IMG/VR virus record: IMGVR_UViG_3300045107_000159
Span: 1-64,000 of that record
Direction: 5' to 3' (one strand)
Length of the DNA: 64,000 nt
Origin: a virus
Part shown: positions 32,589-47,500 of the stretch, piece by piece
Layout: each line of letters opens with the position of its first letter
How positions within the stretch are numbered: the stretch's first letter is position 1
Position numbers and translations under genes: made by a program
The notes under the pieces: model-generated
The model's input: only the letters and a program-made list of their open reading frames with translations
What the model was told of the DNA's origin: nothing
The model's database searches: none

Positions 32589-35500
32589 ATGCCGTTTGAT
32601 GAACTAGACGATCAGGAACAGTCTGGAGGCCAAACTCCGTCCGGAGGCCAGCCCGAACAGCAAGAAATGACCCTCGACCAGTTCGAGGACCATTACGCCA
32701 AGGTGTTCAAGATCCCGAAATACCTGCGCCAGGCGATGAAGGAGCAGGAATCCGGGGCCGACGACACGAAGGCCTTGTCGAAAAAGGGCGCCGTCGGCCG
32801 CTGGCAGGTCATGCCGGACACGGCGGCGAAGTACGGTCTCGACACGAACGACCCGTTCGACAACGCTTACGCGGGGATGCGCTATCTCCGCGAGAAGTAC
32901 GACCAGGTCGACTCCAAAATCACCGAACCCGGCGCGCGCTGGCAGGCGGCGCTCGCCGGATACCACGGCGGCGAGCGGCAGATTAACCACATCAACAAGA
33001 CCGGGGAGATCGCGCCGGGTAACGACGGGAACATCGAGACCGGCAACTACGCCGACAACATCATGCGGCGCTGGCAGCAGCTCAGTTCGGGCGACCATTC
33101 GACCGGCCTCAACAAGGTGGAGATGGGCGCCGGCGACACGATGGACCTCGGCACGGGCAAGATTACGAAGCCCGCGCCGGCTCAGCCCGCGACCAAGCCG
33201 AAAGACGTTCTCGACGGCGTCCCCGTCGACCCGTCGAACCCGTTCGAGTTCCGCGCGCCGCTGGCCAAACTGCCGGCGGAGCAGCCCTCGCGCCTCCCGG
33301 GCGGCCCGATTCGCGCCGACGTCTTCGCCGGCGGGACGCCCCCGCAAAATTTGCAAACCCCTCAGCGGGCGCGGCTGGAGCGCCCGACGAGACAGCTCGA
33401 GCAGCCGAGCCCCTTCGACTTTCGGGGCCCGCTCGCGCAAGTCCCCGAGGGCATGGGCCAGGGGCCGCAACCTGGCGCGACGGTCAAGGTCGACGTCGGC
33501 CAGCCGGCCAACGTCGCGCCGACCAGCCTCCGCGTGATGCGCGAGGACGCGCGAGCCCGCGAGCTCGCCCGGGCGAAAGCCCCGCACGACCATTCCGGCC
33601 CGACCTGGCGCGACCTGCCGCAGGAAACCCGGAACATGCTCGAAAACCCGCAGGCCGCCGCGGCGCTCACCCCGGACGCGCGGGATTACCTCGAATCGCT
33701 GCGGGCCGCGGACGCGCAGGCGCAAGCGGCGTACGAGCGCGATACCGACATCCAAAACGCCCCTTGGTATCCGGAGCAGCTCGCCAACCGCGCGGCGCGT
33801 GGATTCAGCGGCACAATCGACAGCTCCGTTAAAGGTCTCTCGCTTCTTCACCCGGACATCGAGAACCGTCTCCGGCAGAGTTTTATCATGGGCACGACGG
33901 AGGAGGATCAACAGATTCTCCGCCGGCGCTTCCCGGTCGACCCTACCGACGATAGCTATCTGGCGAAAGCGGCGGAGGCCGCGGGTTCGGCCGTCCCGTT
34001 CGCGGCCACGTCCGCCATGGGCGGATTCCTGGGCTTTCCCGAGTTCCTTATCCCGTCCGTGATGGGCGCGGCGTCCAACGCCGGCCAGACCTACGACGAG
34101 GCGATTGCGGCCGGCCAGAATCCGGACCAGGCGAAGCGCGCGGCCGTGATCGGCGCGTTCATCGGCCTGAGTGAAGGGTTCGGCGTCGGGAGCCTCGGCG
34201 CGCCGGCGGAACACGCGGCGACGCACGGCCTTTTGCGCTCCATCGGCGACGAGGCGATGGAAGAGTTCCTGCAGGAAGGCTTTTCGCAGGTGATGAACAA
34301 CATCAACGCGAAGGAGCTCTCCGGCTACGACACGAAGCGCGCCATTACCGAGGGGGTCGCGGAGTCCGCGCTCCTTGGCGGCCTGGTCGGCGGCGGGTTC
34401 GGCGGCGCTCACCACGTCGTCGGCGCCGCCGCCGGCTCCCTCGCCGATCGCGCGGACAGGCAGGCGGGCGCGCGGGCGGTACAGAACGAAGGATTCGCGC
34501 CGCTCAACCTCACGCCGACCACCATGGGGCCGACGCAGCTGACCAGCTTGCGCCAGGCCGCGCAGCCCGAATACCGCAAACGCCTTCAGGAAGCGGCCGC
34601 GCCGGCGCAGGCGCAGACACAGGGCGCCGAAGCCGCGGCGGCCGCCGGGGCGACGCCGGCGGCCGAATCGGCGCCGGCCGCCCCGTTGACCGGACGCGCC
34701 CGCCTCGACGCCGCGGTTCAGCGGCTCCAGTCACTACAACAGCCGAAGAAGGGCGAGAAGCCGACGACGGCGCAAACCCTCGCGGACCTCGAAACCAAGG
34801 GCCAACAGCTCGCCACGTTCGCCATCCAGCGCGCGGACGCAGACCCCGACACCGCCAACCTGGCGTTAAGCCAGTCCATCGGCCACTACCAACGGGCGAT
34901 AAACACCCTCAAGGGCTCGCCCGAATACCAGGCCGAATTGATGTCCATCGCCGGCGGCCAGGCGGCCGAAACGCCGCTGCGCGACAAAATGCTCGAGCTC
35001 GACAAGACGCTCAAAGGCCTCCAGTCATTTTCCGAGCGGGACGCGCGCGCCGAAGCGGACCGAGTGAAGGCGCAGAAGGAAGCCGAGAAAAAGGCGGCGC
35101 AGGACGAAAAAGAGCGCAAGGCGGCCGAAGTGAAGGCGCAGCGCGAGGCCGACGAACGCGCCCGCGTCGATGCGCGCAACAAGAAGGTGGCGGACGCCGA
35201 GCGCAACCGCGCGGAGCAGGAGGCCAAACGGAACGCGGCCGAGGCGCAAAAGACGCTCGACCGCCGGCAGGCCGAAGAGTCGAGGATCCGCGAGCGCGAC
35301 GAAGCCGAACGCGCCAAGGCGGACCAGGCCAGCACGCGCGAGGCCGAGGGCGAGATCAGGCGCATGCGCCTCTTCGACGAGTCGAACGCGGCGGCCGACA
35401 GGGCGGCGGCCGACTCCAGATCCCGCGAGGAGTCCGGCGACTACTCGGGCGCGATCGGCGCGCTCCGGACGCAGCAGGACGCGCTACAGACCGCGCTGCG

Positions 35501-38500
35501 GTACCTTCCGCAGACTCCGGAGGCGGTTAAGACCCGTGCCGCGCACGTCGAGCGAATCCAGGAGATCGCCAACCGGATTCCCGATCTCCGCCGGCGGGCG
35601 GCCGCCGCTCCGCAAAATTTGCGACGGTTCCCGGCCGGCGCCGGCGTCGGGACTGAGAACGGCCCGGAAAGCCGGCTTTTCCGCTCGGTCACGAACCCGG
35701 AGGGCGGCGTACCGCAGACCGAAAGTGGCTATTCGCCGGGGGCCGGTTTCGAGCGCCTGGCCGAGAAGTCGCGCGGGCCGGTCGAAGACCAGACTTCGCT
35801 GCTCACCGCCATTCGGCGTATGGGCGGGATTAGCGACGACGGCGACACGTCGGGCGAACTCCGCCGGATCGGACTGAAGGAAGCCGGTACGACCGGCCTG
35901 GCGCGTCGCGACGGCCATTCCCCGGACACCATGCGCGAAATGCTGGCGTCCGAAGGCTACCTGCCGAAGGATTCGACCGTCAGCGACATGTATGACGCGA
36001 TCGAGGGCGAGCTGCGCGGCCGCGGGTCGAGCCGCGAATCTTCCGAGGAGGACCTCTCGCGCCATTACGAGGAAGAAGCCGAGCGCGAAAAGGCGCTCGG
36101 CGACATCGATCTGCGCCTCCGGACCGGAGAAATCGACCAATTCGACGCCACGCGCGAGCGTAACAAACTGGTCCGCCCGCAATACACGCCGGCGGAAACC
36201 GGTACCGAGCCTATCGAGAGTTACAGCCGTAGCCCTCATCTAGCGGGCGGGACGATTGAGCTCGACGGCGCGACGTACCTTGTCAGAAACGAGCAGGGCG
36301 ACGTCCTGGGCGCCAACGCGAATAAGATGGCGGCCGTTCGTAACGCGGAAGACCGCGCCAGTGGTAGCGGCGACTTCGCGATCAATGAGGAGGGGCGCTC
36401 CGTTTACGCCCCTCAATCTGAAGAGAAAAACGTCACGCCGAGACTCGTCCGGCCGACTGAGCGCGAATCCGTTCCCAAAGCCACGGCCGAAAATATTGAC
36501 GAGCTGCGGCGCAGACGTGATGTATTATCCCGCCTCCGCGCTGACCGGGGCGGGGAGATGTCCGACGACCTCGAAGACGAGTACAAAGAGCTCGGGGCGC
36601 AGATCATCCCCTACGAGGACTCGCAGAGGACGCCGGAGGAGAAGCGCGCGTTAGAGCAGGCGCCCCCCTGGGCTGACACCCGACCGTGGCGGCCGCCGAC
36701 GCGCAAAGAAACGCTCCGCGCGGTCGAAACCGCCGAGCGCGAAGTCGACGAAGAGATCGCCGAGGCCGTCGAAAGCGCTGACCCTGAAGAGGCCGAACTC
36801 CTCGAAAACGCCGCGCAACTTGTTGACGGACTTCTCGGCAGAGTGAACGCGGACGTCGACACCGCGGAACTGCTTGAACTTGCCATAGGAGGCGATGCCG
36901 ATGCTGAAGCGACCCTTACCCGATACGCCGAGCGAAAGCTCAACGCCGGCGCTGACGCCGTTCGAGACCTTATCGAGGCCGGACGATCTGAGCGAGAGCG
37001 AGAGCGAACAGCCGAGCGACCAGACGAGCGACCAGACGAGCGGCGAGACGAACGACCAGGAGCTGAAGAACGCGAAAGCGAGAGTCGCGATGAAACGGGC
37101 GCTCCTGTCGCAGCACCGGAGGAGCGGCCTCAAGAGCCAGGCGCACCGAGCCGCCCGGCGTCCGCGCAGACACTAGACCTTCTTTCCGTCGACCCGGCGA
37201 CCGTGGCGGTCGCCGACTTCGACACCTACCTCGGATCCCTCGAACAACTCAGAAACGATCAGCTGGTCGGCAAGGTGGAGCTCGAAGATTGGGCTAACCG
37301 ACAGCTCCGGGCTAAGCTGAAGCGCGCCAACGAAGTCCGCGTGAAGCTCCGCAAGGAAGGCAAGCTCGGGCCGAAGAACCCACCCCGCCAAGGTAAACAG
37401 AAGCAGCTGAAGAAAGACGAGCTCGGCCGTCGCCTGATGGCGGAGCAAGGCCTTGGCGCTCGCCTCGAAGAAGCCATCGCCGGGTACGGGCGCGGTCTCG
37501 TTTCCATTTCCGATCTGCGCTCGCAATTCCCGGACGTCGGCAAAGAAGCCTTCGACCGCGAAATCGGCAAACTTCACGACCAGCAGCGAGTCGCGCTGCA
37601 TGAGCATGACTGGCCAGCCGGCATGACCGAGGACGCGCGCAACGCCCTCGTCGAAAGGCCGGCCCGGGATGCGCGGACGGGCCAGCCCGGCAAGGCTTAT
37701 TACAACGGCGTCACGCTGCGTGAAGGCGTTAAGCCTGGCGAGGAGGTAAAGCCGAAGGAAGGCCCGACGCTCTACCACGGCTCGCACGAGGCGCTCACCG
37801 CGCTCGGCGTCCGGACGCCGAAAACCTTCGACAGCTTCGGCACCTGGTTTACGAGCGATCCGGAGCTCGCCGGCCATTACGGCGCGAACGTGTACGAGTC
37901 CAAACTGCCGGCGGATTTGAACCTGATCGAGTACGAGGGTAACGGCCAGACCGGAGACCCGACCGCCGACATCAACCGGAAAATCCTCGCCAGCCCCGAT
38001 GTGGCCAGGCGGAGCGGCTTTGAGAAAGAGGCCGCCATCCTCGAAAAGACGCAACCGGACACGCCCCGCCTGAACGAGCTCACGCGCAAGTTGGAACATT
38101 CCGGCCAGCCGCTGACGCCGGCGGAGCAGAAAGAGCTCCGGCAATTGCGGGAAGCCGCGGACGCCTCGCGGACACTCGGCAAAAGCCAGCGTTACATGCA
38201 GACGTTGCGCCAACAGACTGAGGCCGCCGGCTATGACGGCATTGTCTGGCGGAACGTGATGTACGACGTCTCCGACAGGCCGCACGACGTTTACGTGATC
38301 TTCAACAAAGAAGATTTACCGGTCACGAAGCGCCAGGCCGCCGCGCCGAAGGCGAAGCCCGTCGAAGCGGCGAAGCCGGCCGCCGCCGCGGAGATGACGC
38401 CGGAGGAGATGATCGCCGAGGACGAGCGGCGCGAAGTCGCGCGCGTGAAGCGCATCGACGACTTTATCAACGACCATAACGAAACGCCCTTCCAGGCGCC

Positions 38501-41500
38501 GTTACGCGACGGCAAGTCGCTGATCGTCCACCGCTCCGTTAAGCCGGAGTACAAGGACAAGTGGCAGGTCACATGGCTCGACAAGGACGGCGAGCCCTTC
38601 AGAGACACCGCGTTCAAAGACTTCCGCGAGACGCTGGACGAGCTCACGCGCTTTTACGGACTCGACCTCGACCAGGCCTCGGTCGCGCCGGCCGCACAGG
38701 CGCAGCCGCAGGCCTCCGCGCCGGCGGAGTTCGGCGCCGAGAACAAAGTCTTCACGCGCGACCGCGCCGACAAAGCGCGCGACCTCCTGAAGAAGAAATT
38801 CGCCGAGATGTCGCGGCAGACGAACGCCGGCGTCCCGATCGATCCGGAGATGATCCAAGCCGGCGTGGACCTGGTCGGTTATTACGTCGAGGGCGGCGCG
38901 CGCACGTTTGCGGACCTGACCAAGCGCATCATTGGCGACTTGGGCGAGTCCGCCCGGCCGTACGTGAAGTCTTGGTATCTGGCCGTGCGGAATTATCCGG
39001 GCTTCGATAAGAGCGGGATGGAATCGGAAGCCGATCTCGACCGCCTCGAATCCGGCGAAGAACAGCCGACGCTCACTCATCGGGATCCCGAACTTGACCG
39101 CAAGCCGATACTCGCCGAGACGAAAGACGGCCGCAAGATCGTCGCCAACCCCGCGAACGAGAGCGGGGTGTCCGTAGTAAAGGACCGCTCAGAGGACATG
39201 GGCGGATACTCGTCTAGTTCGACGCAGGTCGACCTGCCGAAAGACATCGCGGACCAGGTCGTCGCGTTTGGTAAGAAAATCCCCGACTCCGCGCTGACGG
39301 GAGACGGTCGCGAGAAGCGGCCGCATGTCACGATCCTCTATGGCCTACATGGTTTCGACCCGAAGTTCGTCCAGGCGGCGCTGGAAGGCGAGCGGCCTGT
39401 CAAAGTCACGTTTGGTAAGGTGTCACTCTTCGAAAACGACGAGAGGGACGTGGTCAAAGTCGATGTAACGAGTCCGGATTTGCACCGCCTCTATGCAAAA
39501 GTTCTCAAGTCTCAGCCGAACACACAAACCTTCCCCGAGTACAAGCCGCACGCGACGATCGCCTATGTGCGAAAAGGCCAGGGCGCGAAGTACGTCGGCG
39601 ACAACTTCCTCGAAGGGAAGTCCATCACGCTCGACAAGGTCGTTTTCTCCGGGCGCGACGGCGAGGAGACGGAGATCCAGTTAAACGGCAAGCCGGCCGA
39701 GCAGTTGGACGAAACTCAGGCGGCCGAACCCGTGGAAGCGCCGGCGGAGCAGCCCGCGGCCCGCGACTACGGCACGCCGGCGGAGCCGAACATTCCTGAC
39801 CTGGCGGCCGCGTTCTCTGAAAAATTTGCAAAAGGCGAGGGCTTCCGCACGACGGCCGAGGCGCGCGCGTACGCTGCCGAGCTCCTTGGCGGCGAAGTCG
39901 GGGCCGGATCGCCGGCGGCGAAGCAGATCGACGAGGCGGTTGAACTCGGCGCCGTGCGCGCCGGGCGCGACTTGGCCGCCAAGGGACTTTCGTCGGCGGA
40001 GACTTACGCCGGCATGCTGAAGATCCTCGACGCTCAGCCGACGCTCAACGAACGCACGTCCACGTCCATCGCGAACCAGGCCTTTTCTACGCCGGTACCG
40101 CTGGCTTTCGCCGCGCAGCAGCTCGCCGGCGTCGACGAAAAAACGACGGTCTACGAGCCGACGGCGGGCAACGGCGCGCTCGTGATGGCGGCGAAGCCCG
40201 AGAACATTACGGCGAACGAGCTCAATCCGGAGCGCGCGGCCAACCTGCGCGAATCGATCGACGCGGCCGAAGTCTCGAACGCCGACGCCACGCAGTTCGA
40301 CCCGGGCAAAAAGTTCGACGTCGTGATCGCGAATCCCCCATTCGGCCCGGTTCGGACCGAGAACGGGTCAAAGCGGTTCCAGACGCCATTCGGCGAGACC
40401 ACGGAAATCGACCACGCGATCGCGTTCAAGGCGTTAGAGTCGATGAAGGACGACGGGAGCGCGGTTTTGATCGTCGGCGGAATCTCGCCCCTGGCCAAGT
40501 CGGAGGAGGCGCGATCGGACGCGTACAACACCTCAGCGAAAAGACGCTTCTATTTTTACTTGTACCAAAATTATAATGTTGTCGACCATTTCACGGCCGC
40601 CGGTTCCATGTACAAAAAGCAGGGCGCGGGCTGGCCTGTAGACGTGATCGTAATTAAGGGGCGCGGAAAGTCGGGGCTGGAGCTCCCGGCCGTCGAAGTT
40701 CCGCGGATCATCAGCAACTATGACGAACTCGGCAATCTTATCGAGAACCCCCGCCAGCCAGCCGCAAGGCCGGCCTCAAATCGTGTATTGGAGTCCGGGG
40801 AACGCGGAGCTCGGAGTGATCAAGGCGGCGGTAGACATGCCGATCAGCCACGCGGATTACGTCGACCTTCTGTGTCAACGGCTGGAGGAGAGGCTCAAGC
40901 GGGAGGAAAATCCGGAGCAAGTCCTGGCGGACGCCCGCGAACAACTCCGAAGCTCGTTCGGGAGCCTAACTTATTTGAAGACGCCGACCGAGTGGATTCT
41001 GGAAAACCCGCAGATACAGGAGAGACTCAACTCCCTGCGCGTGAGCCCGCCCAAGGGCTTCCGGATGAAACCAGGTCCGGACCAGCAGCGGCTGCGGGAG
41101 GCTTACGAACAGACCAGTCTGCTCCAGTGGGTGGACGAACTGACGTGGGGGCTCGACGAACACCTGTCGTAGCCGAAACCGAGTCACATTCCCCTTACAA
41201 ACCGCTTAGCAAAGCCAACAGCCTGAACGTCGCAGTCCCTAGGAATATGAGCGGGGCGACGGAAAAGGCTCTCTCCGACTTCGAGGAGCGCCACGGCTCC
41301 CCGGACGAATACCTGGCCGAAAAACTCGGCTACGACGTCAAAGACATCCCGAAATATTTCGGCGCCGAACAGGTCGACGCTGTCGCGCTGGCCGTCTCGA
41401 ACATCGAGGCGGGTAAGGGTTTCGTGATCGGAGACCAGACCGGAATCGGCAAAGGGCGCACGAATGCGGCGATAATCCGCTACGCGATCAAGAACGGGAA

Positions 41501-44500
41501 GACGCCGATCTTCGTGACGCAGAAGCCCGCGCTCTACGCCGACATGATTCGCGACCTGTCGGACATCGGTATGCCGAACGCGCGCGTCCTCATCACCAAC
41601 GGCGGCGAGTCGATCCCGCTCAACGACGCCGGCACGGAATGGATGCAGGCGGTTAAGGACGCCAAGGACAAGGACCAAAAGGCGCCGCCGAAACCCTCCG
41701 ACGCGAAAGTCTTCCGCGCGAAACCCGACCACGATCAAATGCTCGAGCGCTTGGCGCAGTCCGGCAAACTCGCCGGCTATGACGTTGTCTTCACGACCTA
41801 CGACCAGATGAACCCGCAGGGCGGCAAGTTCGACCGACCGCGACATGGGGCCGTGTCTAGGTTGGGTGACGGTGGCGTAGTAATTCTGGACGAGTCCCAC
41901 ACCGCCGGCGGGACGGAGCCGGGCGCGCGGAGCAATCCGAACCAGCAGACGCGAAGTAAGTTTTTCCGCCAGCTTGTCAATAAGGCGGGGTCGGTTTTCT
42001 ACAGCTCGGCGACGTATGCCAAGCGTCCCGACGTGATGGATTTATATTCGAAAACCGACCTCGGCCAACTCGGCGGCAACAAGACGAGCCTGGCCGACCT
42101 CTTCCACCGCGGCGGCGTCGCGCTCCAGCAGGTCGTGGCGTCGAAACTGGCCGAGGCCGGCCAATATCTCCGGCGCGAGCGCACCTTCGACGGCATCCGC
42201 TACGACCCGCAGGTCGTCAAGGTCGAGAAGGAGCAGGCCGAACACGTTAGCCGCGCCATGGCGGTTATCGCCGCTTTCGACGAGGCGAAGAAGGGCGCGA
42301 TCAAGGCTCTCGACAAAGAGGCCAAGCGCGAGGGCAAGTCGCTGAGCGGCGACGGCTCGACCGGATCGGCGGGAGCCGATTCCACGAACTTTACGTCGTT
42401 GATGCACAACGTCGTCGACCAGATGCTGCTCGGACTGAAGGCGGAGCCGGCCGCGCAGCAGGCCATCGAGGCGATTAAGCGCGGCGAAAAGCCCGTCTTG
42501 ACGGTCTCGAACACGATGGAGTCCTTCTTGAAAGAGGCGGGGCTCTCGCCGGGCGACCCCGTCGATCTGTCCTTCCGGGACATCCTTCTGCGATACCTGA
42601 ATCGAAGCCGCGACGTTACCATTCGGGACCGCGACGGTAAACGATCGCGGCGGCCGCTGAGCGACGACGAACTCGCCCGGGGCGGCGCGCTCAGCGCCTT
42701 CGAGGCGGCCGAAGACTTCATCCGCGACGCCGATTTCGCGGACATTCCAATCTCGCCGATCGACTACGTCCGCCAAAAAATTCAGGCGGCCGGCTATTCG
42801 GTGGACGAGATCACCGGCCGCGGGACGCAGGTCGATTACACCGGCAAAATGCCGATCTTGAAAGCCAGGTCGTCGGCCGATACGAAGGTCGCCGGACGCC
42901 GGCGCGTCATTCAGCAGTTCAATAACGGCAAGCTCGACGCGCTGATTCTTAACCAGGCCGGATCCACCGGTATCAGCCTGCACGCCTCCGAAAAGGTTGA
43001 GGACAAGAACGTGCGGCACATGATCATCTGGCAGCCCGAGAAGAACATTGACACTCACATGCAGATGCTCGGGCGCGTCAACAGGACCGGCCAGGTCGTC
43101 GTCCCTCGCTACACGCAGATGATCGCGGACGTCCCCGCCGAGAAGCGGCCGGCCGCCGTGCTTCTGAAGAAAATGGCTTCGCTCAACGCCAACACGACCG
43201 CCTCCCGCAAGTCGGCCGTCCAGACCGAAGGCGTTACGGACTTTATGAACGAGCTCGGCGACGAAGTGATCGCGCGGTTGATGGCGACCGAGGGCGACAT
43301 CCACCGCAAGCTCGGCAGTCCGCTCGATTACGACGGCGATTCGATGGCTTCGGCCGAAGCGGCGCGCCGCGTGACCGGCCGCATTCCCCTCCTGCCGATC
43401 GCGGAGCAGGAGGCGCTATACGACCGCATCGAGCAGGAATACAAGGATTATCTCGAACAGCGCGACGCGATGGGCGACAATCCGCTCGAAGCGAAGACGA
43501 TGGACTTTCGCGCGGAAACCCTCAAAAAAGATTTGCTCGTCGAGGGCACGCCGGGCAGTCCGTTCAGCGAGCCGGCGTACCTGGAGCGCGTTAAAATCCA
43601 GGTTCCCGTCAAACCGTACACGCAGGCCGAAGTAATGGGGATGCTGCGCGATAACCTCGGCCTCGGCGAGTCGGCCGAGCTCGGCGAACTGCAGCAGGCA
43701 GGGAAGCGCCAGGTCAAGGAACTCCGCGACCAGGTGCGGGCCCGCGTCGACGATTTCAAGGACAACATGGCGTCGGAGTACGACAGCGACGCCACCCTAC
43801 AGGCGCAGCGGCAGAAGGCCGACCAGACGTTCTTGCGGTGGAACGCGATCGCGAATCTCGTCACCCCGGGGTCGACCGTCACGGTCGAGACGCCGTCCGG
43901 GAGCGTGTCCGGCGTAGTTATCAGCCTGCAGGAGCGCGGGAAGCCGAAGAACCCGGCCGCCTTCGGCGCCTGGCAGGCGCGCCTTGCCGTCCTCGACGGC
44001 CGCGAGCTCCGCTTTAGCTTCAACGACTTGGTCGACAAGGGCGGCCAGCCGCGCGTGAAGTTCACCGACGAAGTTCAACGCTTCAACCAGGAGACGGGGC
44101 TTTTCGAGTATCGGCCGATGCTCCCCGAGTTCGACGATTCGCAGGGGCTGAAGAAGCAGACGCGTTACATGGTGACCGGCAACATCGTTTCCGGTTATTC
44201 GAAGATCCCCAAGGGGCAAATCCTCAACTACACGGACGCCGACGGCGTGGTGCGCCAGGGCGTGCTTATGCCGGCGAATTTCGACGCGGACAAGGCGATG
44301 CAGGAAATGCCTGTGGAGTTCAAATCCGCGGACCACGTCCTCCAATTCATCGACAAGTCTGGCGCCGTGACGCTCTCCGACCCGCAACCGGCTTTCAGAA
44401 TTTCGCGCGGCAAGAATGGCAAGGTTTTGATGGCGGCCTCCGGGCAAAAGGCGAACGCCGGAAAAATCATCCTCAGTCCGGCCTTGCGAGACATGGGCAT

Positions 44501-47500
44501 CGAGTTTTCCGGCAACCGCACGCGCATGACGGCGCAAATGGACCAGGAGACCGCCCGCCGCGCGATTTGGGGCATCCTCTCGGGCGAGGTAACCGGGGAG
44601 CCTGAAACGCTTCAGGCCGAAAACCTGCGCGACGTGGCGAAAGGGATCGTCAGCAGCGGCTCCGGGCCGGCGCGAGAGCGGTCGCGGGATTGGCAGACGA
44701 AATCGGTCGCGATGGCCGAATCGCTGGCCGACATCGCCGAAAATACTCGAATCCGCGTTCCGAAGTCTCCGTCCCGCGCCAACATGATCTATGGCAATGA
44801 GCAGGCTCACGCCTGGGTCGATAAGGCTGATACGCGCATTCATGGCGTACGGGAGCCCTTCAACGGGATGAACCTGTCGAAGCAGGAGGCCAAGCAGATG
44901 GCGGAGGAAATCCGCCGCGAGAAGTACTGGTGGAGAGACGAGGCCCCGGACGTCAAACGCCGGGCCGACGCCGCGATCGACAAGCTGGCCGACGCCTTCG
45001 ACAACGCCGCGGACAAGTTCGACCGCGTGATCTACGTTCGCGCGCAGGGGCGCGGGTTCCGCAATCTGCGCGGCACTGTATATCACGAGCTCACGCACAA
45101 CGCGGAGCGGACGTACCGCTCGGTCAAGGGCTGGTTCGCGGCGCAACCGGTCTTTGAGAAGATCAAGGCGGCGCTCGAAGACAAGGGTTACAAGCCCCAC
45201 GAGATGATTTCCGAGTCGGTGGCGCACATCCTCGGTGGACAGCGCCGCCAGTTAGGCTTATCGTTGAAGGAGGCGGTGGATTACCTCGACAGTTATTTTG
45301 CAAATATTTCATTCGCGAACGGTCGCGAATCCGTCAACTCGTTTAATCCGATGAACGCCGCGCCGGAAATGCGCCAGGCGCTGCGCGAAGCAAAGGAGAA
45401 ACATGGGCCAAGAGAACCAGTTAGAATTGATGAAGAGGCGATTCAGCGAGCGATACGGCGACGCTCCGGAGGCGACGGAGAATCCGGAGAGCGGGACCGA
45501 CCTTTACGACGACCTCAGCCAGGCGAAGGAGGCTTGGCAGACGCGGGGCAAAGACGGCTTGAAAGACCTACTGGAGTCGCGAGAGAACGAGTCGCGGCCG
45601 ACGAAGACGACGAGCTGACGCCGCACGAGAAGCTTGTCGAGGATTTCGGGAAAGACCGCGATTACATTTCCGATTTCTTTTACGACGACCTTCCCGGCAA
45701 ATTCGACCCGAAAAAACTGATCACCGACCAGTCGCGCGCCATTTGGGACGCTTACCATAAGCGCCTGAGCGACTTCGTCGAGGACTTCTCAGGCCAGCCC
45801 GCCAAAATGGCCGCTCAAATTAAAGCCGCGCAGGCCGAACTCAGCCAGGGCGAGAGCGAGTACCAACGGCTTAATGACCGTTATTACGCACTCCCCGAGG
45901 ATTCCGCCGAAGAGGCCGAAGTCATGGAGAAGATGGAGGCCCTCGAAGCCTCGAACGCGCAGCTCGAAGAAAAAATCGACTACCTCCAAGACGAGCATGG
46001 CTATCTGAAGAACGATGTCCGGGAGTTTAAGCGTCTGGTCGAGCGCAACACCCGTTATGATGAGGCGGACATCGAAAGCGACCTCGGGCGCGAGGCCAAC
46101 CACAAAATCTTCCAGATCGAAAACGAGCGCGACGACGCAATGCGGAAGGCCTTGTCCGATTTACAGAATCCGCCGGCGTCGAAGCCGGATTTCGTCGTCG
46201 AGGCCGAGCAGCGTCTGCGTGAGGCGGCCGCCGGCCAGCTGGCGGGGTCCGGGACGAGGCAGCTCGCCGACCTGGCGATCGTCACTGGCTGGCGCGTCTA
46301 CGAGAAAGGCATGTCCTTCGCGCAGTGGGCGCGCGAGGTCGTCGCAAACCATGGCGACAAGATTCGCCCGTACCTGCAAGGGGCTTGGCGCAAGGTCCGG
46401 AGCGCGAAGGCCGATCAGAAAGTCGGCCGGTCCATCGAACGTCTCTCGGATGAGTATGACTCTCTTACGGACAGGCAGGGCGATCTTCGCAAGGCGATGT
46501 TTGGCCACGCCGACGCCGTCGAAGCGGCGACCAATGAGCGGTACTCGATCGACGAAGACGTCCGCCGGCTGAACGAGCAGCTTAAAAACTCGGTCGCGAA
46601 CACCAGGGCGGCGCAGGCGGCTATCCGCCGTTTGGCCATCGACTCCGAAAGCCCGGAGATCACGAAAGAGAAGGCGCGGCTCGATCGGCAGATCGTCGAA
46701 GGCCGCAAGAATATCGAGCGCCTAAAAGCCCGCCTCGACCGTATCCGCGACGAACGCGACCACATAGGCGACGAGCTGGAGACCTTCGAGGCATGGGACC
46801 AGCCGCGGCTCGACCCCAAAATGGAGGATTGGGCGAAACGCGTCTCAGAAATCCGGAAAGAGCGGCACGCGGAGCAGGCGAAGAAACGCCCCCCGGGGAC
46901 TTACATGGGCGCCGGTTTCGGTTCGTTGCAGGCGCTTTTCGACAGCAAGCCGGCGCCGAAAACGACGCCGCTGCGCGAAGTCGTGAACAAACTCGGTCAC
47001 GAGCCGCTAGGCGTCGACCCGGCGCAGGTCGCGAAGGCCACTCAGGAGCAGTTCATTGAAGCGCTCTCGAAGGGCAAGAACGGCACGTTGCCCGGCGCGC
47101 GCGCGCAGTATTGGGCCGAGAAGCTCGGCGCGAAGAAGACCGCCGACCGCCTGGCCGAGAAACAGGCCAAATTCATCGAAGACGGCGTCGACCTAGTCGC
47201 CAAGATCGCGGACGCGACCGAGCGCATGGCGAAAGCGCAGCGGGGAAGCGCCGAGTACGAAAAGGCCAAATCCGACCAGGACCGCGCCCGGATCAAGCTG
47301 GCGAATCAGTTCTCGAAGGCGGGCGAGTACACCCACCCGTTCGACTACGCCGCGAAAGCGTACAAGGCCTCACTGCTGAGCGCGCTGCACATCCCCTATT
47401 TCAACATCGTGGCGCAGGTCGCGCAGTTCCCCTTCCATGAGGCTCAAAAGGCGGCGGACTGGCTCGTCCCTCAATCCGTGTTCAAAAAGTGGGGCATCCC

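What the first reader, a model, noticed from the sequence alone, without database searches (positions are those of the whole stretch)
40654..41172. Coding signature jumps to the +1 frame for ~420 nt between the methyltransferase and helicase modules
From about 40750 to 41170 the giant-ORF frame loses the genome's strong G/C third-position bias. My hand count gives ~41% GC3 there against ~79% just downstream, and the translation becomes R/G/P/A-rich. The +1 frame has ~77% GC3 and encodes a globular-looking peptide (...PQIVYWSPGNAELGVIKAAVDMPISHADYVDLLCQRLEERL...LLQWVDELTWGLDEHLS) that ends at TAG 41170-41172. The +1 frame is open from 40654 (ATG at 40720). The switch coincides with a C5 run (40748-40752, AAC CCC CGC), where a Pro-tRNA could re-pair in +1, and a G5 run sits at 41147-41151. 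The giant frame regains normal bias right after the TAG (ETESHSPYKPLS...). I see four possible readings:
(a) an overprinted gene inside a disordered linker;
(b) a programmed +1 frameshift making a truncated SLT-to-MTase product with an alternative C-terminal domain;
(c) a compensated pair of frameshift mutations that re-coded a linker domain;
(d) paired homopolymer indel errors in the assembly.
Basis: seen in the sequence. Interest (0 to 1): 0.8.

Follow-up and report, generated by a model that had tools for sequence, protein, structure and literature searches.

The report
Hidden gene nested inside giant gene
The frame switch is real: a small, conserved, unannotated protein gene is written in the +1 frame inside the linker between the methyltransferase and helicase parts of a giant phage protein gene, and about 150 related phage, plasmid and metagenome loci have the same arrangement.

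Summary
Across 40750-41170, GC3 is 0.41 in the giant-ORF frame and 0.77 in the +1 frame.

It is not an assembly error or a lineage-specific pair of frameshifts. In 74/74 viral-contig relatives and 81/82 further metagenome/MAG relatives, the methyltransferase and helicase modules share one frame. That frame has no stop in the linker, and a +1 ORF of about 90-170 codons fills the linker.

Evidence that the +1 frame encodes a protein:
- Substitutions follow the +1 codon structure.
- Frame 0 is stop-free more often than synonymous shuffles allow: 66/66 loci, median P 0.11, window 0.02.
- In relatives the +1 ORF starts at an ATG behind a strong Shine-Dalgarno site (median -8.5 vs -2.2 kcal/mol, p=1e-52).
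- The window's +1 peptide gives a confident AlphaFold model (pLDDT 92).
- It has free-standing homologues.
- It matches no known family or fold.

Reading (a), a nested gene over a disordered linker, is supported. Readings (c) and (d) are refuted. Reading (b) has no comparative support.

The window and its closest relative lack the canonical SD-ATG, so the start (ATG 40720 or GTG 40783) is uncertain. The protein's function is unknown.

The parts
32589..49481 (+). Giant host ORF (5630 codons), a polyvalent-type protein. Domains: SLT lytic transglycosylase, weak ART-PolyVal, 2H-phosphoesterase/Acb1-like, N6-adenine MTase, Strawberry-notch-type helicase.
   Evidence: ORF list; Pfam hits.
39999..40748 (+). 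C-terminal part of the methyltransferase module in frame 0. It is conserved at 45-69% identity in relatives. The last conserved frame-0 residues end at about 40730-40748.
   Evidence: tblastn of this block against the loci; Pfam Eco57I/N6_Mtase hits at residues 2545-2629.
40654..41172 (+). Full stop-to-stop extent of the open +1 frame, the interval given in the finding.
40720..41172 (+). Nested +1-frame gene 'X', longest version: ATG 40720 to TAG 41170-41172, 150 codons. The ATG is conserved at the same position in the closest relative L168. Sub-clade homologues P0097 and P0112 also carry a 17-19-residue N-terminal extension. The SD is weak (-3.3 kcal/mol).
40783..41169 (+). Conserved core of X (129 codons) from the alternative start GTG 40783. 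This start lines up with the family's N-terminus (M-x-A-W-x-P). It has a moderate SD-like AAGG upstream (-4.7 kcal/mol; -5.7 in L168). This stretch gave the pLDDT-92 model.
   Evidence: Alignments A1/A3; structure; SD energies.
40749..41174 (+). Frame-0 reading of the same nucleotides: a 142-residue R/G/P/A-rich linker of the giant protein, presumably disordered. It is kept stop-free.
   Evidence: no Pfam hit.
41175..43400 (+). Start of the Strawberry-notch-type helicase module in frame 0 (AAA_34, Helicase_C_4). Normal frame-0 codon bias resumes here.
40748..40752 (+). C5 run proposed as a +1 slip site. It is not conserved in L168 or other relatives, so it is probably incidental.
41147..41151 (+). 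G5 run (Trp-Gly codons of X). It is not conserved in L168, so it is probably incidental.

Best explanation
The 420-nt stretch is dual-coding.

Ribosomes that started at the 5' end of the giant gene read it in frame 0. In that frame it encodes a low-complexity, basic, presumably disordered linker joining the methyltransferase and helicase modules.

Other ribosomes initiate internally in the +1 frame. They make a separate acidic protein of about 130-150 residues ('X') with a mostly helical fold that no library recognises.

In nearly all relatives, internal initiation uses a strong Shine-Dalgarno site 6-9 nt before an ATG, written inside the frame-0 codons for L-K-E-K-L. A +1-frame stop codon often sits immediately before that ATG. 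The window and its closest relative have lost that canonical signal. They probably start at GTG 40783 (weak SD) or at ATG 40720.

Shown here:
- Both frames are open.
- Selection acts mainly on the +1 frame.
- Selection keeps frame 0 stop-free.
- Relatives have an SD-ATG.
- The +1 product is predicted to fold and has free-standing homologues.

Inferred, not shown:
- X predates the linker. The linker would have arisen when a methyltransferase gene and a helicase gene flanking a small gene were fused by read-through in another frame.
- X acts together with the MTase-helicase (anti-restriction-type) module, as a partner, regulator or anti-defence factor.
- Its function is not established.
For: Frame signal in the window: GC3 is 0.41 (frame 0) vs 0.77 (+1), and the codon-usage scan flags the stretch.

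Family-wide layout:
- In 74/74 viral loci and 81/82 metagenome/MAG loci with both flanks, the MTase and helicase share a frame, frame 0 has no stop, and a +1 ORF fills the linker.
- The same layout occurs on cyanobacterial plasmids of Acaryochloris, Leptolyngbya, Gloeobacter and Picosynechococcus PCC 7002 pAQ6.

Homology:
- The window's +1 peptide hits relatives' linkers in their +1 frame (L001 E=1.5e-11, L168 E=3e-30), while the frame-0 peptide hits nothing.
- The local HMM scores the window's +1 ORF at E=1.9e-21.

Selection:
- Over 415 pairs, differences at +1 codon positions 1/2/3 are 0.31/0.23/0.40. The +1 amino-acid identity exceeds the frame-0 identity in 415/415 pairs.
- Window vs L168: 58/128 residues identical in +1 vs 32/125 in frame 0.
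- Frame 0 is stop-free in 66/66 non-redundant loci, although synonymous shuffles keep it open with median P=0.11. The +2 frame carries the expected number of stops.

Initiation: median SD energy is -8.5 kcal/mol at 113 distinct embedded starts vs -2.2 at 2260 control ATGs, p=1e-52. The SD moves with the ATG where the ATG is displaced.

Protein reality:
- AlphaFold2 gives pLDDT 92 and pTM 0.84 with a 133-sequence alignment.
- 186 representative homologues were found. They include free-standing genes and fusions to T5orf172, ankyrin or other domains.
- None of them is in frame within an MTase-helicase protein.
Against: - There are no expression data (proteomics, Ribo-seq) for any member.
- In the window itself the canonical SD-ATG is absent. 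ATG 40720 has -3.3 kcal/mol and GTG 40783 has -4.7 kcal/mol. These values fall at the 30th and 17th percentile of control ATGs. How X is initiated here is therefore not settled.
- The +1 frame is open 66 nt upstream of the ATG, so a frameshift fusion is not excluded by sequence alone.
- The 'X is older than the linker' scenario lacks a surviving three-gene intermediate. None was found.
- The function is only guessed from context.
Confidence: 0.8

Rival explanations
1. Programmed +1 ribosomal frameshift at the C5 run (AAC CCC CGC). A fraction of ribosomes translating the giant ORF would slip into +1 and terminate at TAG 41170. The product would be a truncated SLT-to-MTase protein carrying X as an alternative C-terminal domain.
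For: - In the window and in L168 the +1 frame is open upstream of X, from 40654.
- No strong SD precedes either candidate start.
- CCC-C allows tRNA-Pro to re-pair in +1 (sequence).
Against: - The C5 run is not conserved in L168, which has GCC CCA GAA.
- There is no stop or rare codon in the A site, and no SD-like stimulator 3 nt upstream.
- In most relatives a +1-frame stop lies directly before X's ATG, and a strong SD is present, so the family makes X as a separate protein.
- Free-standing homologues begin at the same N-terminus.
- An exhaustive HMM search found no protein with X fused in frame behind a methyltransferase.
Confidence: 0.07
2. X is part of the giant protein through two recoding events, +1 at the 5' edge and -1/+2 at the 3' edge. 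The mature polyprotein would then contain the folded X domain instead of the R/G/P linker.
For: The +1 ORF fills almost exactly the gap between the two modules. It starts about 14 nt after the end of MTase homology and ends about 26 nt before helicase homology.
Against: - No conserved slippery motif exists at either edge.
- The +1 stop plus SD-ATG at the 5' edge argue for initiation.
- Frame 0 is kept stop-free through the whole stretch. That would be unnecessary if ribosomes left frame 0.
- No long protein anywhere has X in frame.
Confidence: 0.03
3. An ancient compensated pair of frameshift mutations re-coded a former domain. The +1 signal would be a fossil, and only frame 0 would be translated.
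For: A frame switch bounded on both sides, with the overall frame restored.
Against: - A fossil signal would decay. Instead the +1 ORF stays open in about 150 loci that have diverged to 20-45% identity in X.
- Substitutions still follow the +1 codon structure.
- An SD-ATG is maintained.
- Co-variation is strong enough for a pLDDT-92 model.
Confidence: 0.02
4. Paired homopolymer indel errors in this assembly.
For: Homopolymer runs (C5, G5) lie near both edges.
Against: - The same layout occurs in about 150 independent assemblies, including finished plasmids and a cultured phage genome that may carry it.
- The runs are not at the frame boundaries of relatives and are not conserved.
Confidence: 0.01

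Closest known systems
Lambda Rz/Rz1 two-component spanin genes (PMC5295617, PMC6139136)
   Same: A complete gene is nested in the +1 frame of a longer same-strand gene in a phage. It has its own start signal, and both products are made.
   Different: - Rz1 is a 60-residue lipoprotein inside a 153-codon host, and the two products are known to form a complex.
- Here the host is a 5630-codon multi-enzyme gene.
- The nested protein is a cytoplasmic-looking acidic helical protein with no sequence or fold relation to spanins.
- No interaction has been shown.
comS nested out of frame in srfAB of Bacillus subtilis (PMC12915044)
   Same: A small gene lies in a different reading frame inside a very large multi-module gene, so that the two are co-transcribed.
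   Different: - ComS is 46 residues and lies inside a catalytic module coding region, not in an inter-module linker.
- That nested gene is lineage-restricted, whereas X is conserved across phages, plasmids and many bacterial phyla.
Intragenic out-of-frame 'genes-in-genes' slr0489/slr1079/slr1082 of Synechocystis (bioRxiv 10.64898/2025.12.20.695498)
   Same: A long internal out-of-frame ORF is translated together with the host frame. That work shows by Ribo-seq and proteomics that such pairs exist in bacteria and that their products interact.
   Different: It is a different, unrelated gene family of membrane proteins. X has no experimental support yet.
Viral overprinting, with one frame ordered and the other disordered (PMC3494269, PMC8227390). 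From my own knowledge, the hepatitis B virus polymerase 'spacer' overlapping preS is the closest layout.
   Same: A disordered spacer between two enzymatic domains of a large protein is encoded by the same nucleotides as a second protein in another frame. One frame shows the compositional oddity typical of the younger frame.
   Different: - Here the element is a DNA phage or plasmid.
- The nested frame, not the host frame, appears to be the older one.
- The nested gene has free-standing homologues elsewhere.
Polyvalent proteins of phages and conjugative elements, with the MTase-helicase dyad (PMC5512222)
   Same: The host gene fits this class: many conflict-related domains in one polypeptide, including SLT, ART-PolyVal, an adenine MTase and a Strawberry-notch-type SWI2/SNF2 ATPase.
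   Different: The paper's main text contains neither 'frameshift' nor 'overlapping', and its one use of 'embedded' refers to peptidase domains (term search). The nested gene therefore appears to be an undescribed feature of these genes.

Membership tests
Same-strand nested out-of-frame gene with independent initiation (Rz1/comS type) | A second ORF lies entirely inside a longer ORF on the same strand in another frame. | tested here: met
   +1 ORF 40720-41172 lies inside 32589-49481.
Same-strand nested out-of-frame gene with independent initiation (Rz1/comS type) | The nested frame is under purifying selection as a protein. | tested here: met
   - Codon-position differences are 0.31/0.23/0.40.
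- The +1 identity exceeds the frame-0 identity in 415/415 pairs.
- Window vs L168: 45% vs 26% identical.
- The HMM scores the window at E=1.9e-21.
- The structure model has pLDDT 92.
Same-strand nested out-of-frame gene with independent initiation (Rz1/comS type) | The host frame is maintained open beyond chance. | tested here: met
   Frame 0 has no stops in 66/66 non-redundant loci, against a median shuffle probability of 0.11 (window 0.02). The +2 frame is not protected.
Same-strand nested out-of-frame gene with independent initiation (Rz1/comS type) | The nested gene has its own ribosome-binding site and start codon. | tested here: inconclusive
   This is met in relatives: median SD energy is -8.5 kcal/mol, and 76% of starts are at or below -6 vs 8% of controls. 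In the window, ATG 40720 has -3.3 and GTG 40783 has -4.7 kcal/mol. Many other window genes also lack a strong SD.
Same-strand nested out-of-frame gene with independent initiation (Rz1/comS type) | Both protein products are detected. | not testable with these tools
   No proteomic or Ribo-seq data are available here.
Programmed +1 ribosomal frameshift (prfB/antizyme type) | A conserved shift site with a slow or stop codon in the A site, plus a stimulator. | tested here: not met
   AAC CCC CGC has no stop or rare codon. The site is absent from L168. Most relatives have a +1 stop between the MTase end and X's ATG.
Programmed +1 ribosomal frameshift (prfB/antizyme type) | The trans-frame fusion product exists. 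| tested here: not met
   Among 186 hits in the exhaustive HMM search of 1.84 billion proteins, none has X joined to a methyltransferase. Gene callers do not predict trans-frame products, so this evidence is weak.
Polyvalent protein (host gene) | Several unrelated conflict-related domains sit in one polypeptide of a phage or plasmid, including the MTase-helicase dyad. | tested here: met
   Pfam finds SLT, 2_5_RNA_ligase2/Acb1, Eco57I/N6_Mtase, weak ART-PolyVal, AAA_34 and Helicase_C_4. The window also has a terminase, a tail-fibre-like protein and an integrase.
Any described protein family or fold for X | A significant match to Pfam, PHROGs, NCBIfam, PADLOC, PDB sequences, PDB folds or BFVD folds. 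| tested here: not met
   No family matches. The best PDB sequence E-value is 0.18. The best Foldseek E-values are 2.5 (PDB) and 1.1 (BFVD).
Assembly artefact | The frame anomaly is confined to this assembly and sits at homopolymers. | tested here: not met
   The layout is shared by about 150 independent loci. The homopolymers are not conserved. Raw reads are not available.

The most novel reading that the evidence does not exclude
The inter-domain linkers of giant polyvalent-protein genes may be systematically built over small nested +1-frame genes. These genes would form a hidden set of proteins that annotation pipelines cannot see.

X would be the most conserved of them. It would act as a dedicated partner or regulator (or an acidic anti-defence factor) of the injected MTase-helicase anti-restriction module. 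Its fold would be new.

The window itself shows two further +1 candidates with SD-ATG (36895-37176 and 45403-45618). High-GC relatives show recurrent +1 candidates in upstream linkers.
Probability: 0.3. Interest if true: 0.8.

Novelty: new member of a known kind. Interest (0 to 1): 0.68.

Why it matters
Gene callers forbid fully nested same-strand genes, so this family is nearly absent from protein databases. A word-indexed search of 5.8 billion proteins returned only 10 members, all from contigs under 1.6 kb. The exhaustive search returned 186 representatives. Yet the gene sits in about 150 phage, plasmid and MAG loci found here.

It adds a conserved, foldable protein of unknown function and unrecognised fold to the MTase-helicase 'dyad' that phages and plasmids use against restriction.

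It also gives a clear bacterial-virus case in which a disordered linker of a fusion protein and a structured protein share the same nucleotides. That makes it useful for studying how fusions and overlapping genes arise.

A model organism carries it (Picosynechococcus PCC 7002, plasmid pAQ6), so the prediction can be tested directly.

Tried and rejected
- A word-indexed homology search with the window's +1 peptide alone found nothing. tblastn against GenBank phages also found nothing. Homology appeared only through tblastn on related loci and through profiles.
- Scans of genome and metagenome collections with the +1 peptide as query found no close relative.
- AlphaFold with an 11-sequence alignment gave pLDDT 50. 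Only the 133-sequence alignment gave a usable model.
- Fold and sequence searches against PDB and BFVD, and scans of Pfam, PHROGs, NCBIfam and PADLOC, gave no function.
- I looked for a surviving three-gene arrangement (MTase, X and helicase as separate ORFs). The apparent cases (L188, L189, the Gloeobacter annotation) have frame 0 open or a single disrupting stop, so none is convincing.
- More distant MTase-Sno genes either lack a linker or have an ordinary frame-0 acidic linker without a clear +1 ORF or HMM hit (Pseudomonas and Vogesella plasmids, Acinetobacter phage).
- Bacteroides phage BS-TP4 has a positionally equivalent +1 ORF with a GC3 switch, but no significant similarity (hhalign E=0.03).
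- Text searches of the held paper library found no description of this nested gene.
- The C5 and G5 runs were examined as slip sites and rejected as unconserved.
Full report
**Observation**

The giant ORF runs from 32589 to 49481 (5630 codons). Over 40750-41170, third-position GC is 0.41 in its frame, 0.77 in +1 and 0.67 in +2. The whole ORF has 0.80, and 150-nt windows downstream have 0.76-0.92. The +1 frame is open from 40654, has an ATG at 40720 and stops at TAG 41170-41172.

The frame-0 peptide is 54% R/G/P/A with pI 10.9 and no I, M, C, W or Y. The +1 peptide has an ordinary composition and pI about 5. A codon-usage scan of the giant ORF flags only three stretches where another frame looks more like coding than frame 0. 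This is the longest of the three.

**Context**

The window looks like a temperate phage. It has a terminase large subunit, a 2684-residue protein with a tail-fibre-like C-terminus, and an integrase.

The giant protein carries these domains:
- SLT
- a weak ART-PolyVal hit
- a 2H-phosphoesterase/Acb1-like domain
- an N6-adenine methyltransferase
- after the anomalous stretch, a Strawberry-notch-type helicase

This matches the 'polyvalent protein' class with its MTase-helicase dyad (PMC5512222).

**Relatives**

A scan of viral contigs with the helicase start returned 80 loci at about 45-55% identity. In all 74 loci that contain both flanks:
- the MTase and helicase are in the same frame;
- that frame has no stop in the linker;
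- a +1 ORF occupies the linker, typically from 14 nt after the end of MTase homology to about 26 nt before helicase homology;
- in the large majority, GC3 in the linker is far higher in +1 than in frame 0, typically 0.7-0.9 vs 0.3-0.5; the few exceptions have long linkers whose frame-0 sequence extends beyond the +1 ORF.

The window's +1 peptide hits these linkers in their +1 frame (L001, E=1.5e-11). The frame-0 peptide hits nothing.

Metagenome and species-genome scans added 82 loci with both flanks, and 81 have the same layout. Cyanobacterial plasmids of Acaryochloris, Leptolyngbya, Gloeobacter and Picosynechococcus PCC 7002 have it too. In Gloeobacter pGMOR1 the nested ORF is even annotated, as hypothetical protein WP_230844304.1.

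This excludes assembly error and a private pair of frameshift mutations.

**Both frames are used**

With each +1 protein and its codon composition held fixed, synonymous shuffles leave frame 0 stop-free with median probability 0.11 (0.02 for the window). Yet 66 of 66 non-redundant loci have no frame-0 stop. The +2 frame carries the expected number of stops.

Substitutions follow the +1 codon structure. Positions 1/2/3 differ in 0.31/0.23/0.40 of sites. The +1 amino-acid identity exceeds the frame-0 identity in 415 of 415 pairs.

Against its closest relative, L168, the window keeps 58/128 residues in +1 but only 32/125 in frame 0. L168 is a MAG contig with the helicase at 75%, the MTase at 69% and X at 44% identity (E=3e-30).

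So the +1 frame is under protein-level purifying selection. Frame 0 is mainly selected to stay open.

**How the +1 frame is reached**

In 65 of the 66 first non-redundant loci the +1 ORF begins with ATG, usually 6-9 nt after a purine-rich SD such as AAGGAG, GGAG or GAGG; a few loci (for example L001, L015, L069) have only a weak one. A +1 stop often lies directly before the ATG (TAA-ATG).

Over 113 distinct contexts, the median anti-SD pairing energy is -8.5 kcal/mol. For 2260 other ATG triplets in the same loci it is -2.2 (p=1e-52). Where the ATG lies further downstream, the SD has moved with it (for example L007). That is the signature of independent initiation, not frameshifting.

The window is the exception, together with L168. 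Neither has the AAGGAG-ATG. Both keep an ATG at the same place (window 40720; SD -3.3 in the window, +1.9 in L168). Both also keep a GTG exactly at the family's N-terminus (window 40783; -4.7 and -5.7).

Sub-clade homologues P0097 and P0112 carry a 17-19-residue N-terminal extension. P0112 starts at an ATG behind GAGG. Many other genes of the window also lack a strong SD.

I therefore leave the window's start as 40783 or 40720. The C5 run is not conserved.

**The product**

The +1 peptides align end to end, with W8, P10, L35, R38, N80, L87, P99, L118 and W121 conserved. Shorter versions (92-113 residues) match the central part by profile-profile comparison (91.8% probability, E=7e-7).

No Pfam, PHROGs, NCBIfam or PADLOC family matches.

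In 5.8 billion clustered proteins, the word-indexed search found only 10 members, all on contigs shorter than 1.6 kb. This is expected if gene callers systematically miss a nested gene.

An exhaustive HMM search of 1.84 billion representatives found 186 hits. Most are 120-200 residues. Some are genuine fusions:
- to T5orf172 plus a zinc ribbon;
- to ankyrin repeats;
- to transmembrane segments;
- to an unknown domain of about 200 residues.

Several are free-standing chromosomal genes in accessory islands. Their neighbours include HTH regulators, a GIY-YIG nuclease, an MmeI-type enzyme, a four-gene cluster that reads like a Zorya-type defence system, HipA and Bro-N. None is in frame within an MTase-helicase protein.

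With a 133-sequence alignment, AlphaFold2 models the window's +1 peptide at pLDDT 92 and pTM 0.84: a short N-terminal beta-hairpin plus a helical bundle. An 11-sequence alignment gave only pLDDT 50. Foldseek finds no neighbour in PDB or BFVD (best E-values 2.5 and 1.1), and a profile search of PDB sequences finds nothing.

The family is acidic, with median pI 4.6 and net charge -10.

**Interpretation**

The stretch is a nested gene over a linker. The nested frame is folded, conserved and has free-standing relatives. The host frame is low-complexity, and its codon positions vary in the wrong order.

The most economical history is that a small gene lying between (or inserted between) a methyltransferase gene and a helicase gene was read through in the -1 frame relative to itself. 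That fused the two enzymes, and the read-through became the linker. This is an inference. I found no surviving three-gene intermediate.

The R/G-rich composition of the linker follows mechanically from reading an E/D/A/L-rich, GC3-rich gene one base early.

The function of X is unknown. Three facts suggest a partner, regulator or anti-defence role:
- its fixed position inside the MTase-helicase dyad;
- its acidity;
- the conflict-island contexts of free-standing homologues.

I give that role no more than about 0.3.

**Comparison with known systems**

Nested same-strand out-of-frame genes are a known kind:
- Rz1 in Rz (PMC5295617, PMC6139136);
- comS in srfAB (PMC12915044);
- the recently verified Synechocystis genes-in-genes (bioRxiv 10.64898/2025.12.20.695498);
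- viral overprinting in general (PMC3494269, PMC8227390).

From my own knowledge, the layout 'disordered spacer of a multi-domain enzyme overlapped by another gene' also recalls the hepatitis B virus polymerase spacer and preS.

This case is a new member of that kind. It is an undescribed gene family, nested in polyvalent-protein genes, and conserved across many phage, plasmid and MAG lineages. The main text of the polyvalent-protein paper contains neither 'frameshift' nor 'overlapping' (term search), and text searches of the held paper library found no description of the nested gene.

**Verdict**

- Reading (a) is supported.
- Reading (b) is unsupported but not excluded for this one genome.
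- Readings (c) and (d) are refuted.
- Confidence in the nested, separately translated gene is 0.8.
- Interest is 0.68.

Noticed in passing
window 45369-45639 (+1 ORF: ATG 45403 to TGA 45616-45618): This is a second stretch of the giant ORF where +1 looks more like coding than frame 0 (GC3 about 0.8 vs 0.47). It holds a 71-codon +1 ORF behind AAGGAG-N4-ATG (-8.7 kcal/mol), and frame 0 is R/G/E/P-rich there. L001 has an analogous SD-ATG +1 ORF (65 codons, GC3 0.73 vs 0.35) after the homologous frame-0 domain. The two peptides show no detectable similarity.
   Followed up: partly
window 36879-37209 (+1 ORF 36895-37176): This is the third flagged stretch: a 93-codon +1 ORF behind AGGAGG, with GC3 0.85 vs 0.54. 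Both frames are low-complexity (frame 0 has ERPDERPDERRDERP repeats), so the signal is ambiguous.
   Followed up: partly
Loci L017, L023, L070 and L033, L044, L053, about 2.4-3.6 kb upstream of the helicase start: In high-GC relatives, 20 of 21 additional frame-switch stretches are in +1, and many have an SD at or below -6 kcal/mol before the first ATG. Two small groups of these peptides are homologous within the group (E values between 1e-4 and 4e-40). This hints at further nested ORFs in other linkers of these giant genes.
   Followed up: partly
L186 (Bacteroides phage BS-TP4, PQ571277.1, gp3), linker between the MTase and helicase: This cultured phage has a 5391-codon gene with a 435-nt linker. 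The linker holds a +1 ORF of about 120 codons (GC3 0.61 vs 0.33) at the equivalent position. Similarity to X is not significant (hhalign E=0.03), so homology is open.
   Followed up: partly
L194 3590-4096 = NC_010480.1 complement 100507..101013 (Picosynechococcus sp. PCC 7002 plasmid pAQ6): The nested gene is present inside the annotated strawberry-notch gene SYNPCC7002_RS15125 of a model cyanobacterium (HMM E=7.6e-35, GAGGA-N7-ATG). It is not annotated there. This is a convenient system for an experimental test.
   Followed up: yes
window 39309-39596 (giant protein residues about 2241-2336): A 2H-phosphoesterase / anti-CBASS Acb1-like domain lies inside the giant protein (Pfam 2_5_RNA_ligase2 at 8e-8; Acb1 at 3e-5, below its cut-off). 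It suggests cyclic-nucleotide degradation as one of the polyprotein's anti-defence activities.
   Followed up: no
window 32589 (start of the giant ORF) and other gene starts: The giant ORF's annotated ATG has no SD (+0.5 kcal/mol), and about half of the window's long ORFs lack one. Start-site calls in this genome are therefore uncertain. Translation of the giant frame may be weak compared with internal initiation.
   Followed up: no
L191 1-5691 (next to free-standing homologue P0073): An ankyrin-X fusion gene lies beside a divergent HTH gene. About 2 kb away is a MotB_plug / EH_Signature / SNF2-Mrr_cat gene set that reads like a Zorya-type defence system, which would place it in a defence island.
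   Followed up: no
L118 (metagenome contig Ga0208876_1000422): This is the only relative of 82 in which the MTase and helicase are out of frame, with a frame-0 stop and a truncated +1 ORF. It is probably a pseudogene or a sequencing error.
   Followed up: no
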